Origin: a virus
Virus record (IMG/VR): IMGVR_UViG_3300023171_000009
Location: 9,113 to 73,112 of that record
Direction: 5' to 3' (one strand)
DNA: 64,000 nt
A program made the position numbers and the translations under genes. The notes beneath the pieces were generated by a model. That model ran no database searches. It worked only from the letters and a program-made list of their open reading frames with translations, and was not told the DNA's origin. Below are positions 308-6,992 of the stretch, in pieces (positions within the stretch are counted from its first letter, which is position 1; every line of letters begins with the position of its first letter).

Positions 308-3175
308 TTATCCTCTTGAAACACTCTTTCTTCTTTCTGCTTTTTGCCGTCCGGTTTTGCTGTCCACTTTTTCTTTTTCAGTCCAGCTTACTCTCTGTCC
401 TAGTAAAACGGTATAAACTCCACAAATTGCATCCGCAACGTCCTTGGATGTAACTGGACCGCTTGACGGATGATCTATCTTACTAGGCTTCTTCTTGAAA
501 TCCGGAACTAACGCTAGCAACTCTTTAAATCCAATTTCATTGACTGGACAAGCCACACGTTTTTGATGAAGGGCGGATCTTAGTGCATCATAAGTTACCA
601 AATCTTCAACACTTATTTTATCGGTTTTAAAACCTTTACTGACAAGTATCTGCCTGGTGTCCACAGACTGGAAATTATCCATAGTTACAATCTGGATAGG
701 TATTTTCAAAACGTCTCTCAGATAATAAACCCAATGTCTTATGATATCGATATTAATTTGCCCGGACTTAGGTGGTTGAACGGCTAATGCAAAATCATAA
801 ACGACATACGGAAAGGACTCTTCCACAAGCTTTAAATTTCCATCAGAATCAATAGTTGATGATTGTATAGGAACAACATCAAGGACGAATCCGCATGCTA
901 TGCCTACCCGATCTTGTGATAAAGCCAAATCGATATGTAAAGCTCTTGGACATTCAGGCCATGGAGTGGCGTAATCATCAGTTACTTCCGGCATTCCATC
1001 ATCAAATAAAGTTACAGTTTGTTTCCATGGAGAAATCATTCCTAGGGCTTTCCAAGCTTTAGCCATATTCCAAACGTCTTCACGATCTTTAAAGTAGACG
1101 TTAGAACTTCTAGCGCTTCTTCCGCCAAAATCGCGAAGCGCCCCCTCCGGGTCTGTTATAAAATGTTGTTTATATCTTACAGGAACTTCCATTATCTCAG
1201 CTCCTTTTCTAGGAGTTTCATCTGTGGAAAGTATACGCGTCATCGCCCTTTCATCCCCTACTTGGACTTTGAATTTTTGCTCTGTTTCCAATGTGGAGTC
1301 AGGATAAACTTCCCAATGCGCCTTCTCCCAAATAAATACCTTATGAGTGTCCTCAGTATTATCAGCAGCTAATACTTCTTTTTTTCTAACTTCTGTAAAG
1401 TCTCCCGCATGTCCTTTGGAAGACACCATGCAAAACCTTCCTATATCGGAATCAGGGAAACGGCTTGCTCTACGGCGTATAAGCTTTTTATAAACTTCTT
1501 TAGCTTGGTCAAATTCCCCCGTCTCCTCTTTGGACCTTTTAGACTTCTCAACAAAAGTCATGAAATTTAACTCATCGACAATTGCCGATATAACGTCTTC
1601 ACCTAAAAATTTATCAGCACTTGCGGCACCATACATAATCATAAGATTATGAGGAAACAGCATCATTTCTTCTTTGCGACGATTATATGGGAATTGTTCT
1701 TTAAAGTAAGGGCAGCGTTTTATGATGTTTTTTAGCTTTCCGTAAGTTACGCGCTTAGCCAATGAATCTGTTTTATTCAAACATAAAACCATAACGGGAG
1801 AACCAGGAAGCATTCCTAGGTAGAGTTGAGGTTGTTTGAAAGTAGATAGGTTATATAGATCGTAAAGAGTAACAATTTGTGCTAGGGTCGTTTTTCCGCA
1901 GTTCCCTGTTATAAATATATTTCCCTCACGTCTTAACACTAGTAATCCGGTGTTTACCCTGAAACAATATTTAAAGCCATCTGTAGATGGAACTCTTAAT
2001 ATATCTGACTTAGGAGTTGCAGCCATACTAGTTAGTGCATTCTTAGCCTTATGCACTATGTAATCTGTCTTACCGTCATCGCGAAGGTAACCACGCAATG
2101 AGGCTCTTTGCCCTAAAGTCGAAAAAGCATATTGTATAAAATCAGCCGAATCTTTATTTCGAGTATAAAAGGTTTGATCGGTTACAGAACCATCCCATCT
2201 TAAGCATTCATCACATATAATAACTAATTGCTCAGAAGAAGCTTGCCAGAAAGTTTTAAACGATTTTACTCTTAAAGGAGCTTCGAAATAAAATTTAACG
2301 TAACCCTCCGCTCCTTTATGCTCTTCCCAAGGGATGCCCGAGTCTTTCAATAGTATTCTTGCTCTATGTATCTTGTCTGTGCGTTTTATGTTTACAGTGC
2401 ATGCGTGACTCATCCTAGAAAAAGAACCATCTGCGATCACCATAACCATAACTCTTAAATCTTCATCGGACAATTCTAGCCCTATGTAATCAGGCACTTT
2501 AAATGTAGTCTGAAAGGAGCCTCTGAATCCGTTAGTAGAAGCGTTGTGCATTAGGGCTACTTCCTTTGCTGACTTAAATAGCCAATTCTTTTTTGCCTTA
2601 TAATAAACACGATGATCGTCGCATAGCATTTGGTCTATGCCATACTTAGTCTTAAAATGCCACATTTCAGCACAAGGCAATTTTATGTATTCTTTAGGAA
2701 TAACATAGTTTATCTCTTGTGTTACCGGGTCATATTCTGCAACCCTCTCTCCAGCATAGCTAGATATTTTTCTCCATCCATCAGGAGTTAAATATTCAGT
2801 CTTACTATCTACACAGCCGATCCCGCCCATTAACAGCGCCTCCATGTATCCACCGTCAGCAATACTTACAGCGGCCTCTAATACTTTTGCAAATACGCCT
2901 TGCTGTGGCGTAGTTTTATTTGACTTATCGGTTACAACGTCAAGCCCTAAAAAATCCTTGTCCCGGACAAACTGTTCCATTGAAACAGGGCGATGGCTTC
3001 TCCCGATAACACTAGCAAAATTCCCCTTCGCTTTTTTTAAATCATCTATGAAATCTGTAAACGTGGGTATGCTAAAATTAGGATTAGCTAATACAAGTTC
3101 TGATATTGCTTGATTAAGTATATCAGCAGGAGCGTTTGCTATAGCTAGTAATTGAGATTCCGTAAGGACTGCCAT
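308..3175 (-). CDS. terL: Terminase large subunit (intein-containing)
   Basis: Walker A GGIG/CGKTT split by intein, Walker B IVDE, C-terminal RNase H-like nuclease (HIDLA, MDNFQS, KDVADA). Start moved to ATG 3175; the track's TTG start lies inside the 14-bp site. Confidence 0.92.
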   Translation of the reverse strand: MAVLTESQLLAIANAPADILNQAISELVLANPNFSIPTFTDFIDDLKKAKGNFASVIGRSHRPVSMEQFVRDKDFLGLDVVTDKSNKTTPQQGVFAKVLEAAVSIADGGYMEALLMGGIGCVDSKTEYLTPDGWRKISSYAGERVAEYDPVTQEINYVIPKEYIKLPCAEMWHFKTKYGIDQMLCDDHRVYYKAKKNWLFKSAKEVALMHNASTNGFRGSFQTTFKVPDYIGLELSDEDLRVMVMVIADGSFSRMSHACTVNIKRTDKIHRARILLKDSGIPWEEHKGAEGYVKFYFEAPLRVKSFKTFWQASSEQLVIICDECLRWDGSVTDQTFYTRNKDSADFIQYAFSTLGQRASLRGYLRDDGKTDYIVHKAKNALTSMAATPKSDILRVPSTDGFKYCFRVNTGLLVLRREGNIFITGNCGKTTLAQIVTLYDLYNLSTFKQPQLYLGMLPGSPVMVLCLNKTDSLAKRVTYGKLKNIIKRCPYFKEQFPYNRRKEEMMLFPHNLMIMYGAASADKFLGEDVISAIVDELNFMTFVEKSKRSKEETGEFDQAKEVYKKLIRRRASRFPDSDIGRFCMVSSKGHAGDFTEVRKKEVLAADNTEDTHKVFIWEKAHWEVYPDSTLETEQKFKVQVGDERAMTRILSTDETPRKGAEIMEVPVRYKQHFITDPEGALRDFGGRSARSSNVYFKDREDVWNMAKAWKALGMISPWKQTVTLFDDGMPEVTDDYATPWPECPRALHIDLALSQDRVGIACGFVLDVVPIQSSTIDSDGNLKLVEESFPYVVYDFALAVQPPKSGQINIDIIRHWVYYLRDVLKIPIQIVTMDNFQSVDTRQILVSKGFKTDKISVEDLVTYDALRSALHQKRVACPVNEIGFKELLALVPDFKKKPSKIDHPSSGPVTSKDVADAICGVYTVLLGQRVSWTEKEKVDSKTGRQKAERRKSVSRG
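1901..2815 (-). mobile_element. Intein with LAGLIDADG-type endonuclease, 305 aa
   Basis: Begins CVDSKTEYLTPDGW, ends GNIFITGN followed by extein Cys; internal VIADGSF and LRWDGSV blocks. Confidence 0.9.
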
Positions 3176-3191
3176 AAAATGAAATCGTTGC

Positions 3192-3229
3192 AAAAAAGAA
3201 ACCGGAGTTAGGAAAACCCCAACTCCGGC
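3192..3229 (-). terminator. Rho-independent terminator upstream of terL
   Basis: CCGGAGTT/AACTCCGG stem followed by U-tract on minus strand. Confidence 0.8.
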
Positions 3230-4679: not shown

Positions 4680-4925
4680 TTATCTAATATTTTTGCCTAA
4701 ACTTCCGCAATTTGAATCCGAATCGACTTCTAAATACTTGATAAAGAAGTTCAGAAATTCATGCCCTAAATCACTTAAGATTTTGCCTGTTGCTTTACAG
4801 GAACCGCACCAACTCCAATCTTTTTGTTCTCTGCTCTTTCCAAGAAAAAACCCTCCCTTACCTTGGCATACAGGGCATTCTGTCTCTAAATGATCTAAAT
4901 TAAGTTGTTTTTTTGCATCACTCAT
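4680..4925 (-). CDS. Small zinc-finger protein (CXXCXGXG type)
   Basis: CPVCQGKG...CGSCKATG; start refined to MSDAKKQ. Confidence 0.65.
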   Translation of the reverse strand: MSDAKKQLNLDHLETECPVCQGKGGFFLGKSREQKDWSWCGSCKATGKILSDLGHEFLNFFIKYLEVDSDSNCGSLGKNIR

Positions 4926-4962
4926 AAAATTATACTTCGTTGTCTTTTTCCCACTCTTCAGT

Positions 4963-5139
4963 TTATTTGAAAGTTGGACCATCGAAAGTTACGCCGCAAT
5001 ATGGGCAAAACTTTGGTGGTTCAATTTCATAATGCCGCACATAAAAATTATTTTTACATATCGGGCAACTAATGGCACTAACATCAAACTTCCGGCCTGT
5101 GGAGCTTGTGTACTCGAATTTTTCCGGCTCCCCGTCCAT
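4963..5139 (-). CDS. 58-aa zinc-ribbon protein (not in ORF track)
   Basis: Hand translation MDGEPEKFEYTSSTGRKFDVSAISCPICKNNFYVRHYEIEPPKFCPYCGVTFDGPTFK. Confidence 0.75.
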   Translation of the reverse strand: MDGEPEKFEYTSSTGRKFDVSAISCPICKNNFYVRHYEIEPPKFCPYCGVTFDGPTFK

Positions 5140-5163
5140 GGTCTAAAGTATTTAAAAATTGTT

Positions 5164-5248
5164 TGGCTGGCATGACAGGACTTGAACCTGCATAGCAATT
5201 AAGCTGACTTACGTTTAGTCTGGAATACCAATTCTCCTTCACATGCCA
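5164..5248 (-). tRNA. tRNA-like gene with long variable arm and non-canonical anticodon loop
   Basis: 7-bp acceptor TGGCATG/CATGCCA, G73, encoded CCA, T-arm GCAGG-TTCAAGT-CCTGT, D-loop AATTGGTA, variable arm AGC-TTAATT-GCT; anticodon arm GACT-AAACGTA-AGTC. Confidence 0.75.
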
Positions 5249-5257
5249 AAAATTGTG

Positions 5258-5655
5258 CCACCCGCCTTTACTAAACTATATAGAACGTTCCACCGACTAT
5301 ATTGTTATTAAGTTTATTTTAAAGGCGGGTGGTCTTTGTCTCTTCTTTCATATACCATTCAATGTCTGTGATCCGCCACAGTGCTATTTTAAGGTAAGCT
5401 ACATAGTGCTTGAAATTTTTCAGGCCAATTGTTATAAGTTGCGCGGCTTCCTTTACCGCAATGCTTTTTGCTTTCTAGGTTGGCCAGTGGTCGGGCTTCG
5501 CCCCGCTGCTATAAGAATGTCAACTACATAGTGCTTGAACGGTTAAGGGTTAAAAGCTACAAATATCTAAGTTTTTTCATAAGGGCTGTGTTCGTGCTAC
5601 GCCACGATGCTATGAGTAACTACATTGGTTTAGAAGTTTAACCTTCTGGTTGAGG
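5258..5655 (-). ncRNA. Candidate ~400 nt structured non-coding leader RNA with three repeated hairpin units
   Basis: No credible ORF; three ATGTAGYT...ATAGCA-stem-GCGNAK-stem units with different but pairing stems; 13-bp inverted repeat at 5258-5332. Confidence 0.6.
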
Positions 5656-5660
5656 TTTAA

Positions 5661-5688
5661 AATGTATCCAAAAATGAGTTAAAGGCAA
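5661..5688 (-). promoter_or_regulatory. Promoter TTGCCT-N16-TACATT driving the ncRNA/tRNA region
   Basis: Hexamers; 14-bp site 8 nt upstream of -35. Confidence 0.65.
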
Positions 5689-5728
5689 CTACTATTTTGC
5701 AACGATTTCAAAAAGTCTCCTTAAATTC

Positions 5729-6103
5729 CTAAAAAAGATGCCTTACAGAACCATTTCTCACAAGTGCTTGTGCGAAGGTTAATCCGCCTCCATGGTCGTT
5801 TTTAATAACGCTGCAAGGGCCGTAGAGGCTCCATCCCTGCCTCATAAGAGAGGAAACTTTCTCGCTAAGCGGGGCGGAAAAATTACCAACTACCATAGTG
5901 TATTCAGGTAACATAGGCGGGGCGTCTTTTAATGGGTGCGGAGAGGCTTTCGCTTTACCGACCATTAGCTTTAATACCACGTCTACAAACTCTACAATAT
6001 CCTCTTTAGTGTGCGTGTATTTACGGTCCCTAAGTTCTTGAAATACAATCAAAAGATCCTCCGCTTCTTGATCCGTTAGGTTATTTAATCCTGGAGTGTC
6101 CAT
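5729..6103 (-). CDS. DUF1737-like domain protein
   Basis: C-terminal ...VSSLMRQGWSLYGP...FAQALVR resembles DUF1737. Confidence 0.55.
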   Translation of the reverse strand: MDTPGLNNLTDQEAEDLLIVFQELRDRKYTHTKEDIVEFVDVVLKLMVGKAKASPHPLKDAPPMLPEYTMVVGNFSAPLSEKVSSLMRQGWSLYGPCSVIKNDHGGGLTFAQALVRNGSVRHLF

Positions 6104-6471: not shown

Positions 6472-6678
6472 TTAAGATACTTGATAGTTTTTAGGATTGC
6501 GTGTTTGATTCGTCATATGAAGATCGTAAAAGAAATTAAAGTTATTTAAAAATATTACACTATCAAGGCTATAACGAAGGTCTATAAGTGAAGTATGTAG
6601 ACTAACGCTGCCGAAAAGCATAACGTTATAAGTCCAGACAGTAAAAGGGCGGGGATTTTCGCACGCAATTTTTTTCAT
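6472..6678 (-). CDS. Hypothetical protein (paralog of next)
   Basis: CENPRPFTVWTYNVMLFG. Confidence 0.65.
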   Translation of the reverse strand: MKKIACENPRPFTVWTYNVMLFGSVSLHTSLIDLRYSLDSVIFLNNFNFFYDLHMTNQTRNPKNYQVS

Positions 6679-6992
6679 GTTATGTCATATTCTACTGGTT
6701 TTGTGTTGCCCGCGTAAGTATTGGCGATTACACCAAGGTTCAATATGTAATCCTGATTACTAAGAAATCGATAATCACACATTGTGCGTATTATACTTTC
6801 AGGCCCTCCAAACTTTAGAACTCCGTAAGCCCATAAAGTAAAAGGAACTGGATTCTCGCAAAGCAAAGATGGACGTTCTTTTAATCCTTTACAGTCTGAA
6901 CATTCTTTTTGCAGGATTCCGCCTCTATTGCTCATCACAAAATAATGACCGCGACCAGCGCAAAAGCTACAAAATACACCTATAGTTTTCAT
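6675..6992 (-). CDS. Zn-finger hypothetical protein (paralog of previous)
   Basis: CSFC..CSDC plus CENPVPFTLWAYGVLKFG. Confidence 0.65.
   Translation of the reverse strand: MKTIGVFCSFCAGRGHYFVMSNRGGILQKECSDCKGLKERPSLLCENPVPFTLWAYGVLKFGGPESIIRTMCDYRFLSNQDYILNLGVIANTYAGNTKPVEYDIT

What the first reader, a model, noticed from the sequence alone, without database searches (positions are those of the whole stretch)
5164..5248. Non-canonical tRNA: intact acceptor and T arms with CCA but an aberrant anticodon loop
Seen: perfect 7-bp acceptor (U1:A72), G73, CCA, canonical T-loop, D-loop GG and a class II long variable arm. However, the anticodon arm is a 4-bp stem with loop AAACGUA (A32/A33, U37; central ACG), and there are 4 nt rather than 2 between acceptor and D stem. 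Established: decoding needs U33 and a purine 37, and long variable arms belong to Leu/Ser/Tyr/Sec tRNAs, not Arg. Inference: a pseudo-tRNA, a decoy for anticodon nucleases or synthetases, or an RNase P/CCA processing tag for the upstream ncRNA.
Basis: partly seen in the sequence, partly recalled or inferred. Interest (0 to 1): 0.62.

Follow-up and report, generated by a model that had tools for sequence, protein, structure and literature searches.

The report
Non-decoding serine-type tRNA look-alike in phage
An uncultured 98-kb phage carries one tRNA-shaped gene whose body copies a rare serine tRNA design, but its anticodon arm cannot read codons, so it is probably a tRNA mimic or a dead tRNA, a kind of element already seen in other phages.

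Summary
On the minus strand, 5164-5248 encode an 85-nt tRNA-shaped RNA. It has a perfect 7-bp acceptor stem (U1:A72), G73, an encoded CCA, a canonical T arm, a D loop with GG and a 14-nt variable arm. Its anticodon stem has only 4 bp and its loop reads AAACGUA (no U33, no purine 37). ARAGORN finds nothing. Rfam tRNA scores 28.4 bits (cut-off 29; E 3e-5 in the phage record), the only tRNA-like match in that record.

New here: the body is that of a rare class II tRNA-Ser. Real tRNA-Ser(GCU)/(UGA) genes in a Saccharibacteria MAG and in metagenome contigs share the identical D arm, the T arm, A26, G73 and the same 3-4-nt connector. The "4-nt connector" is therefore a family trait, not damage. All departures lie in the anticodon arm, the variable arm and a fully re-paired acceptor stem. 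CGU codons still mean Arg. The record holds no integrase, Ro60, RtcB, RNA ligase or CCA-adding enzyme.

No relative of the phage could be reached, so selection cannot be tested. Best reading: a non-decoding tRNA mimic or RNase P processing signal (about 0.45). Main rival: a dead tRNA (about 0.3). This scan has noted similar non-decoding phage tRNA look-alikes on other DNA.

The parts
5164..5248 (-). Whole tRNA-like RNA, 85 nt including the encoded CCA (5164-5166) and G73 (5167)
5242..5248 (-). Acceptor 5' strand UGGCAUG. It pairs 7/7 with 5168-5174 (CAUGCCA). U1:A72, G2:C71 and G3:C70.
   Evidence: Direct reading; pair probabilities 0.81-1.0
5222..5241 (-). 4-nt connector UGAA plus D arm GGAG-AAUUGGUA-UUCC (A14, G18G19 and A21 present). 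The D arm is identical to that of tRNA-Ser(GCU)/(UGA) in L110/L086, L072 and L077.
5206..5220 (-). Aberrant anticodon arm: 4-bp stem GACU/AGUC and loop AAACGUA (A32, A33, U37)
   Evidence: Rfam skips it with a local end.
5192..5205 (-). Long (class II) variable region AGCUUAAUUGCUAU: a 3-bp A/U-rich stem against 4 G/C-rich pairs in the tRNA-Ser homologues
5175..5191 (-). T arm GCAGG-UUCAAGU-CCUGU, identical to that of metagenomic tRNA-Ser(GCU) L072
5258..5332 (-). 13-bp perfect inverted repeat closing a 49-nt loop. It ends 9 nt before the tRNA-like 5' end and is followed by CACAAUUUU, whose U run abuts U1. It would become the 3' hairpin of the upstream RNA if RNase P cuts at U1.
   Evidence: (I2)
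5140..5728 (-). 589-nt gene-free stretch between ORF 5729-6103 and ORF 4963-5139. It holds three hairpin modules (5364-5625, another finding), the big hairpin and the tRNA-like element at its 3' end.

Best explanation
The element descends from a class II tRNA-Ser of a rare design (small D arm, 3-4-nt connector). It has kept everything needed to fold into the tRNA L-shape and to be handled as a tRNA end: acceptor helix, G73, CCA, and the D/T elbow with all tertiary nucleotides. It has lost the ability to decode: the anticodon stem is one pair short, the loop has no U33 or purine 37, and the anticodon is not a Ser anticodon. I think it most likely works as a non-decoding tRNA mimic. It would be transcribed with the upstream 480-nt structured RNA and recognised by RNase P at U1 (U at -1, RCCA 3' end). 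That cut would release an 85-nt CCA-ending tRNA-like RNA. It would also leave the upstream RNA with a hairpin-plus-U 3' end and free the downstream mRNA. The released RNA could in addition occupy a factor that reads the acceptor, elbow or variable arm of serine tRNAs. Shown: the anatomy, the tRNA-Ser ancestry of the body, and the absence of recoding. Inferred: transcription, RNase P processing and any mimic role.
For: (1) tRNA relatedness is significant: RF00005 scores 28.4 bits, E 3.2e-5 in the record. The real homologous tRNA-Ser(GCU), the only AGY-reading tRNA detected in its MAG, scores only 31.7 bits, so the low score partly reflects the design. (2) The D arm is identical (16/16, by search design). 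In addition, positions not selected by the search also match L072: connector 3/4, A26, all 17 T-arm bases, G73. Global identity is highest to tRNA-Ser(GCU), 67%. (3) The departures are not spread at random. All 12 near-universal positions outside the anticodon loop are kept (U8, A14, G18, G19, A21, G53, T54, Psi55, C56, R57, A58, C61), while all 3 inside it (Y32, U33, R37) are broken; this is my own post-hoc count, about 1/455. (4) The acceptor differs from the homologues at 5 of 7 pairs, each changed on both sides, and still pairs 7/7. (5) The cloverleaf lies within 0.6 kcal/mol of the MFE. (6) It is the only tRNA-like gene in the record and sits at the 3' end of a 589-nt gene-free, structured stretch in an otherwise tightly packed genome. 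(7) There is precedent: T5-like phages carry annotated 'tRNA-like RNA with unknown functions' RNA2 and RNA3 (AJ604531.1), and B. cereus tRNA-Other is a pseudo-tRNA working inside a larger RNA (PMC3399842).
Against: No homologue of the element, of its neighbours or of the phage was found, so there is no covariation or conservation evidence that the present anticodon arm is maintained. The D-arm identity with tRNA-Ser was the search criterion itself. The variable stem is weak (3 bp, A/U-rich). There are no expression data. The promoter-like and terminator-like hits in the region are at chance level. The count in point 3 is post hoc.
Confidence: 0.45

Rival explanations
1. It is a dead gene: a phage tRNA-Ser that recently lost its anticodon arm and is now drifting, with no function.
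For: ARAGORN finds no gene and the Rfam score is below the cut-off. The anticodon stem lacks one pair and the loop lacks U33 and R37. The variable stem has decayed from 4 G/C-rich pairs to 3 A/U-rich pairs relative to homologues. Nothing shows conservation.
Against: Neutral decay should also hit the acceptor, D and T arms. Yet those show 16/16 stem pairs intact, all tertiary nucleotides and the CCA present, and the D and T arms identical to working tRNA-Ser genes. Several independent changes cluster in one arm. A tightly packed phage genome seldom keeps useless DNA for long.
Confidence: 0.3
2. It is a working decoder with an unusual anticodon loop: a Ser-charged or Arg-charged tRNA reading CGN, or another codon through an expanded 9-nt loop.
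For: Serine identity does not depend on the anticodon and rests on the variable arm, G73 and the acceptor stem (PMC9976931). G73 and G2:C71 are present. The central loop triplet is ACG.
Against: A33 and U37 break the two most conserved loop rules, and the stem is one pair short. The nine CGT codons of TerL align mostly with Arg (24 of 36 homologue residues) and never with Ser. G1:C72, conserved in most bacterial tRNA-Ser, is replaced by U1:A72. The D loop lacks A20, which ArgRS needs (my knowledge). AGA, not CGU, is the main Arg codon in TerL.
Confidence: 0.07
3. It acts at the DNA level: an attP core copied from a host tRNA gene, or part of a packaging or replication site in the gene-free stretch.
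For: Phages often integrate into tRNA genes. The element lies about 2 kb upstream of terL in a repeat-bearing gene-free region.
Against: There is no tyrosine integrase in the 89%-complete record. There is no exact match of the T arm plus acceptor in one genome each of 185,579 prokaryote species or in IMG/VR. Both acceptor strands, the CCA and all tertiary nucleotides are present, which an attP core does not need.
Confidence: 0.04

Closest known systems
Class II tRNA-Ser(GCU)/(UGA) with small D arm and 3-4-nt connector: Ca. Saccharibacteria MAG CAZPQI010000019.1 (L086/L110); metagenome contigs L072/L080/L085, L077/L083
   Same: Connector UGAU or UGC against UGAA here; identical D arm; A26; identical T arm (L072); G73; long variable region; 7-bp acceptor
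   Different: 5 of 7 acceptor pairs are replaced (U1:A72 instead of G1:C72). The anticodon stem has 4 bp, not 5, and the loop is AAACGUA instead of UUGCUAA or CUUGAAA. The variable stem is weaker. The CCA is encoded here but not in the cellular genes.
T5-like phage RNA2 and RNA3, annotated 'tRNA-like RNA with unknown functions' (Salmonella phage 5, AJ604531.1)
   Same: Phage-borne tRNA-shaped RNAs with an acceptor stem and T arm but no usable anticodon arm, and no known role. There is a weak local similarity, CGUAAGUC-N13/14-GCAGGUUCAAGUCCUG (E 0.2).
   Different: They sit inside a large tRNA cluster. RNA2 is 125 nt and ends in ACA, and neither reaches Rfam tRNA at E<=1. The similarity is too weak to claim homology.
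Bacillus cereus tRNA-Other (PMC3399842)
   Same: A pseudo-tRNA that does not act in translation and is expressed as part of a larger RNA
   Different: It is chromosomal, flanks a genomic island and is of a different tRNA type. No sequence relation was tested.
Phage tRNAs with altered anticodon loops that escape tRNA-targeting defences (PMC10264068; PMC11555353)
   Same: A phage-encoded tRNA whose changes concentrate in the anticodon loop
   Different: Per the titles and abstracts and my knowledge, those tRNAs still work as tRNAs in translation. This one lacks U33 and R37 as well as a stem pair.
Bacterial and phage Y RNAs (YrlA) with a tRNA-like domain bound by Ro60
   Same: A tRNA-mimicking fold in a non-coding RNA
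   Different: There is no Ro60/TROVE gene in the record. As I recall, YrlA closes the acceptor end with a loop, whereas here the acceptor end is open and carries CCA.

Membership tests
Canonical decoding tRNA | 7-bp acceptor stem, discriminator and CCA | tested here: met
   7/7 Watson-Crick pairs, G73, encoded CCA
Canonical decoding tRNA | T arm (G53-C61, T54-Psi55-C56-R57-A58) and D loop (A14, G18G19, A21) | tested here: met
   All are present
Canonical decoding tRNA | 5-bp anticodon stem and a 7-nt loop with U33 and purine 37 | tested here: not met
   4-bp stem; loop AAACGUA with A33 and U37
Canonical decoding tRNA | Recognised by tRNA finders at standard thresholds | tested here: not met
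   ARAGORN finds 0 genes. RF00005 scores 28.4, below 29. The working homologue scores only 31.7.
Bacterial tRNA-Ser (SerRS substrate) | Long variable arm | tested here: inconclusive
   The region is 14 nt, but the stem has only 3 A/U-rich pairs against 4 G/C-rich pairs in the homologues
Bacterial tRNA-Ser (SerRS substrate) | G73 with G1:C72 and G2:C71 (PMC9976931) | tested here: inconclusive
   G73 and G2:C71 are present; G1:C72 is replaced by U1:A72
Bacterial tRNA-Ser (SerRS substrate) | Ser anticodon (NGA or GCU) | tested here: not met
   The loop AAACGUA holds no such triplet in any register
Bacterial tRNA-Ser (SerRS substrate) | Serylation | not testable with these tools
   Needs an aminoacylation assay
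Non-decoding phage tRNA-like RNAs (T5 RNA2/RNA3 type) | tRNA-shaped body with no usable anticodon arm, phage-encoded | tested here: met
Non-decoding phage tRNA-like RNAs (T5 RNA2/RNA3 type) | Conserved among related phages, or a stable RNA product | not testable with these tools
Y RNA / YrlA with Ro60 | Ro60 (TROVE) partner gene | tested here: not met
   PF05731 is absent from the record
attP tRNA fragment | Integrase, and identity to the 3' end of a host tRNA | tested here: not met
   PF00589 is absent. There is no exact 22-nt match in the species genomes.
tmRNA | tRNA-like domain with G3:U70 and a tag reading frame | tested here: not met
   ARAGORN finds no tmRNA at default settings or at relaxed thresholds. 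Position 3:70 is G:C.

The most novel reading that the evidence does not exclude
The RNA is a purpose-built serine-type tRNA bait. It keeps the acceptor end, elbow and long variable arm but cannot enter decoding. It would soak up a host defence enzyme that picks serine or class II tRNAs by their variable arm and attacks the CCA end. Examples are the DUF1814 nucleotidyltransferase toxins of the MenT/AbiEii family: MenT3 prefers tRNA-Ser through the variable loop (PMC11541572). At the same time the element could serve as the RNase P cut site that releases the upstream three-module RNA.
Probability: 0.1. Interest if true: 0.7.

Novelty: new member of a known kind. Interest (0 to 1): 0.35.

Why it matters
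Phage tRNA genes are now seen as weapons against tRNA-targeting immunity. tRNA-shaped RNAs that cannot decode keep turning up in phage genomes with no known role. This copy adds a class II (serine-type) example that stands alone in its genome, next to a long structured non-coding RNA. It also shows that a rare but working tRNA-Ser design, with a 3-4-nt connector, is barely seen or is misfolded by standard tRNA finders. If the mimic or bait reading were right, it would point to a defence that reads serine tRNAs. As it stands, it is an orphan without comparative support.

Tried and rejected
- Exact and degenerate DNA patterns for the T arm plus acceptor and for the anticodon arm found nothing in IMG/VR, JGI metagenomes or the species genomes.
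- The 16-mer of the upstream modules gave 7 IMG/VR hits, which I estimate is about the chance level.
- Searches with the neighbour proteins returned only the window's own protein or nothing.
- The first TerL search returned 61 loci that match only residues 116-438. One search showed that this part is an intein-like insert shared with RtcB, helicases and others, so those loci, and the tRNA-Gln genes seen in some of them, are not relatives. I dropped the tRNA-Gln synteny idea.
- The TerL C-terminal half found no IMG/VR relative. Among cultured phages the best is 33% identity (Rhodobacter, Agrobacterium and Vibrio siphoviruses), and RcDurkin has no tRNA annotated in the 7 kb on either side of its terminase match.
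- ARAGORN at relaxed thresholds gives a 97-nt 'tRNA-Gly(UCC)' fold with 2 acceptor mismatches and a nearly all-wobble D stem. I rejected it as inferior.
- Saccharibacteria as host: only 1 real case among 151 genomes of the class carries this D arm. The second hit, G079, is not a tRNA. The host stays open.
- Homology to T5 RNA2 rests on E 0.2 only, so I do not claim it.

Full report
**Where it is.** The window is bases 9113-73112 of a 98,476-base linear IMG/VR virus record estimated 89% complete. Genes run almost entirely on the minus strand, and GC is about 40%. The finding lies on the minus strand: the plus strand at 5164 begins TGG, the complement of CCA. It sits at the 3' end of a 589-nt gene-free stretch (5140-5728). 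On one side is a DUF1737 protein gene (5729-6103). On the other is a 58-aa zinc-ribbon ORF (4963-5139) that starts 24 nt after the CCA. terL begins about 2 kb further downstream.

**Observation.** Read 5'->3', the RNA has these parts:
- acceptor 5' strand UGGCAUG
- connector UGAA
- D arm GGAG-AAUUGGUA-UUCC
- A26
- anticodon arm GACU-AAACGUA-AGUC
- variable region AGCUUAAUUGCUAU
- T arm GCAGG-UUCAAGU-CCUGU
- acceptor 3' strand CAUGCCA
- G73 and CCA

ARAGORN at default settings reports no tRNA or tmRNA in the window. At 60-80% thresholds it offers only a 97-nt alternative with two acceptor mismatches and a nearly all-wobble D stem, which I reject. Rfam's tRNA model scores 28.4 bits against a gathering score of 29 and skips the anticodon arm by a local end. 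Over the whole record this is E 3.2e-5 and the only match. The element is therefore truly tRNA-related, and it is the phage's only such gene. The cloverleaf evaluates to -23.2 kcal/mol against an MFE of -23.8.

**What the body is.** A pattern made of the D arm, a free gap and the T loop hit 14 metagenome contigs and one species genome. Nine are class I tRNA-Met genes that use the 16-mer differently. The five with a long gap are class II tRNA-Ser(GCU) (L072, L080, L085) and tRNA-Ser(UGA) (L077, L083). The genome hit is a tRNA-Ser(GCU) of a Candidatus Saccharibacteria MAG (L086/L110).

These genes share the following with the phage element:
- a 3-4-nt connector (UGAU or UGC against UGAA)
- the whole D arm
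- A26
- G73
- in L072, all 17 bases of the T arm

In the MAG this is the only tRNA found that reads AGY codons, and it is the lowest-scoring of its 37 tRNAs, at 31.7 bits. Infernal and ARAGORN both shift its acceptor stem to cope with the connector. The "4 nt instead of 2" is therefore a trait of a working, if rare, tRNA-Ser design. It also explains part of the low score.

By global alignment the phage element is closest to tRNA-Ser(GCU), at 67%. The MAG's Tyr, Leu and other Ser tRNAs lie at 52-61%. The design is rare even in Saccharibacteria: one real case in 151 genomes. It does not fix the host.

**What differs.** Against these homologues:
- Five of the seven acceptor pairs are replaced on both strands and still pair. 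The result is U1:A72, G2:C71, G3:C70.
- The anticodon stem has lost a pair.
- The loop reads AAACGUA instead of UUGCUAA or CUUGAAA.
- The variable stem has gone from four G/C-rich pairs to three A/U-rich ones.
- The CCA is encoded here.

All twelve near-universal positions outside the anticodon loop are kept, while Y32, U33 and R37 are all broken. This count is my own and post hoc (about 1 in 455 if three hits fell at random among fifteen positions). The D-arm identity is partly by construction of the search.

**Can it decode?** Most likely not. A33 and U37 break the two strongest loop rules, and the arm is one pair short. No register gives a Ser or stop-suppressor anticodon with a paired stem.

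I tested the one concrete recoding idea: a Ser-charged tRNA reading CGU. Serine identity does not depend on the anticodon (PMC9976931). The nine CGT codons of TerL align with Arg in 24 of 36 homologue residues and never with Ser. G1:C72, conserved in most bacterial tRNA-Ser, is absent. The U1:A72 + G73 end looks more like tRNA-Gln or tRNA-Asn (for U1:A72; the rest is my knowledge). What, if anything, charges the RNA is open.

**Other readings tested.**
- attP: there is no tyrosine integrase in the record. There is no exact match of the T arm plus acceptor in one genome each of 185,579 species or in IMG/VR.
- Y RNA: no Ro60/TROVE gene.
- tRNA repair or maturation partners: no RtcB, RNA ligase or CCA-adding enzyme.
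- tmRNA: none.
- Coding: only short ORFs that overlap one another or the 58-aa ORF cover it.

**Surroundings.** Nine nucleotides upstream ends a 13-bp perfect hairpin closing a 49-nt loop. It is followed by CACAAUUUU, with the U run abutting U1 of the element. With U at -1 and an RCCA 3' end, the element has the features that bacterial RNase P favours (my knowledge). A cut there would leave the upstream RNA with a hairpin-plus-U 3' end. Promoter-like and terminator-like hits in the region are at shuffle level, so the transcription units are not established. The three hairpin modules further upstream were examined by another agent (e1-5359047).

**Comparative evidence: none.**
- The neighbour proteins have no relatives in IMG/VR. 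One of them, searched against the 5.8-billion-protein collection, matched only itself.
- The first TerL search was misled by an intein-like insert, residues ~116-440. It is shared with RtcB, helicases, DnaB and RecA and is present in all five aligned TerL relatives.
- The intein-free half finds nothing in IMG/VR. Among cultured phages it finds only 33%-identical terminases. One of these phages, RcDurkin, has no tRNA annotated within 7 kb of the match.

Whether the aberrant arm is maintained therefore cannot be tested here.

**Known things it resembles.**
- GenBank record AJ604531.1 of a T5-like phage annotates RNA2 and RNA3 as "tRNA-like RNA with unknown functions". A weak match (E 0.2) links our positions 36-73 to RNA2, too weak for homology.
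- B. cereus tRNA-Other is a pseudo-tRNA acting inside a larger RNA (PMC3399842).
- Phage tRNAs with anticodon-loop changes that evade tRNA-targeting defences are documented (PMC10264068, PMC11555353), but as far as I know they still work in translation.
- Toxins that single out serine tRNAs by the variable loop and act on the CCA end exist (MenT3; PMC11541572). That makes a Ser-type bait conceivable but wholly untested.
- Earlier notes of this scan report conserved non-decoding tRNA look-alikes in several other phages. They are unchecked leads, not support.

**Verdict.** This is a real, tRNA-Ser-derived, non-decoding tRNA-like gene. I rate a maintained mimic or processing element at about 0.45, a dead tRNA at about 0.3, an odd decoder at about 0.07 and a DNA-level role at about 0.04. 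It is a new member of a known kind, of modest interest because it is an orphan.

Noticed in passing
window 308-3193 (-), residues ~116-440 of TerL: The large terminase carries an intein-like insert at its ATPase P-loop. That third of the protein matches (40-47% identity) inserts in RtcB, SNF2 helicases, DnaB, RecA and clamp-loader proteins. It is present in all five aligned TerL relatives, and the Rhodobacter phage RcDurkin terminase is similarly long (1046 aa). It misleads similarity searches for relatives of the phage.
   Followed up: partly
L086/L110 (Ca. Saccharibacteria MAG CAZPQI010000019.1), L072, L077: These are working class II tRNA-Ser genes with a 3-4-nt connector between the acceptor and the D stem. 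Infernal scores the GCU ones only ~31.7 bits, and both Infernal and ARAGORN shift their acceptor stems (3-5 poor pairs) instead of using the perfect 7-bp helix. This design is prone to mis-annotation.
   Followed up: partly
window 5258-5332 (-): A 13-bp perfect inverted repeat encloses promoter-like hexamers (TTTAAA-N16-TATAGT). It could be either a terminator-like hairpin in read-through RNA or a promoter for the tRNA-like gene; chance-level by the shuffle control.
   Followed up: no
window 5230-5259 and 5713-5742: A 30-nt direct repeat (70% identity) marks both ends of the gene-free stretch. On the minus strand each copy reads GGCA..UUUUU..AAGGAGA, so the connector and D stem of the tRNA-like RNA double as a Shine-Dalgarno-like AAGGAG.
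   Followed up: no
window 4680-4982 (-) and 6675-6992 (-): Two small proteins carry paired CxxCxGxG motifs of the DnaJ zinc-finger type. The 58-aa ORF at 4963-5139 is a CxxC...CxxC zinc ribbon with a weak Lar-like PHROG match.
   Followed up: no
L071 (AJ604531.1) 1425-1549 and 550-622: RNA2 and RNA3 of a T5-like phage are annotated as tRNA-like RNAs of unknown function. Neither reaches the Rfam tRNA model at E<=1. RNA2 holds two T-arm-like hairpins.
   Followed up: partly
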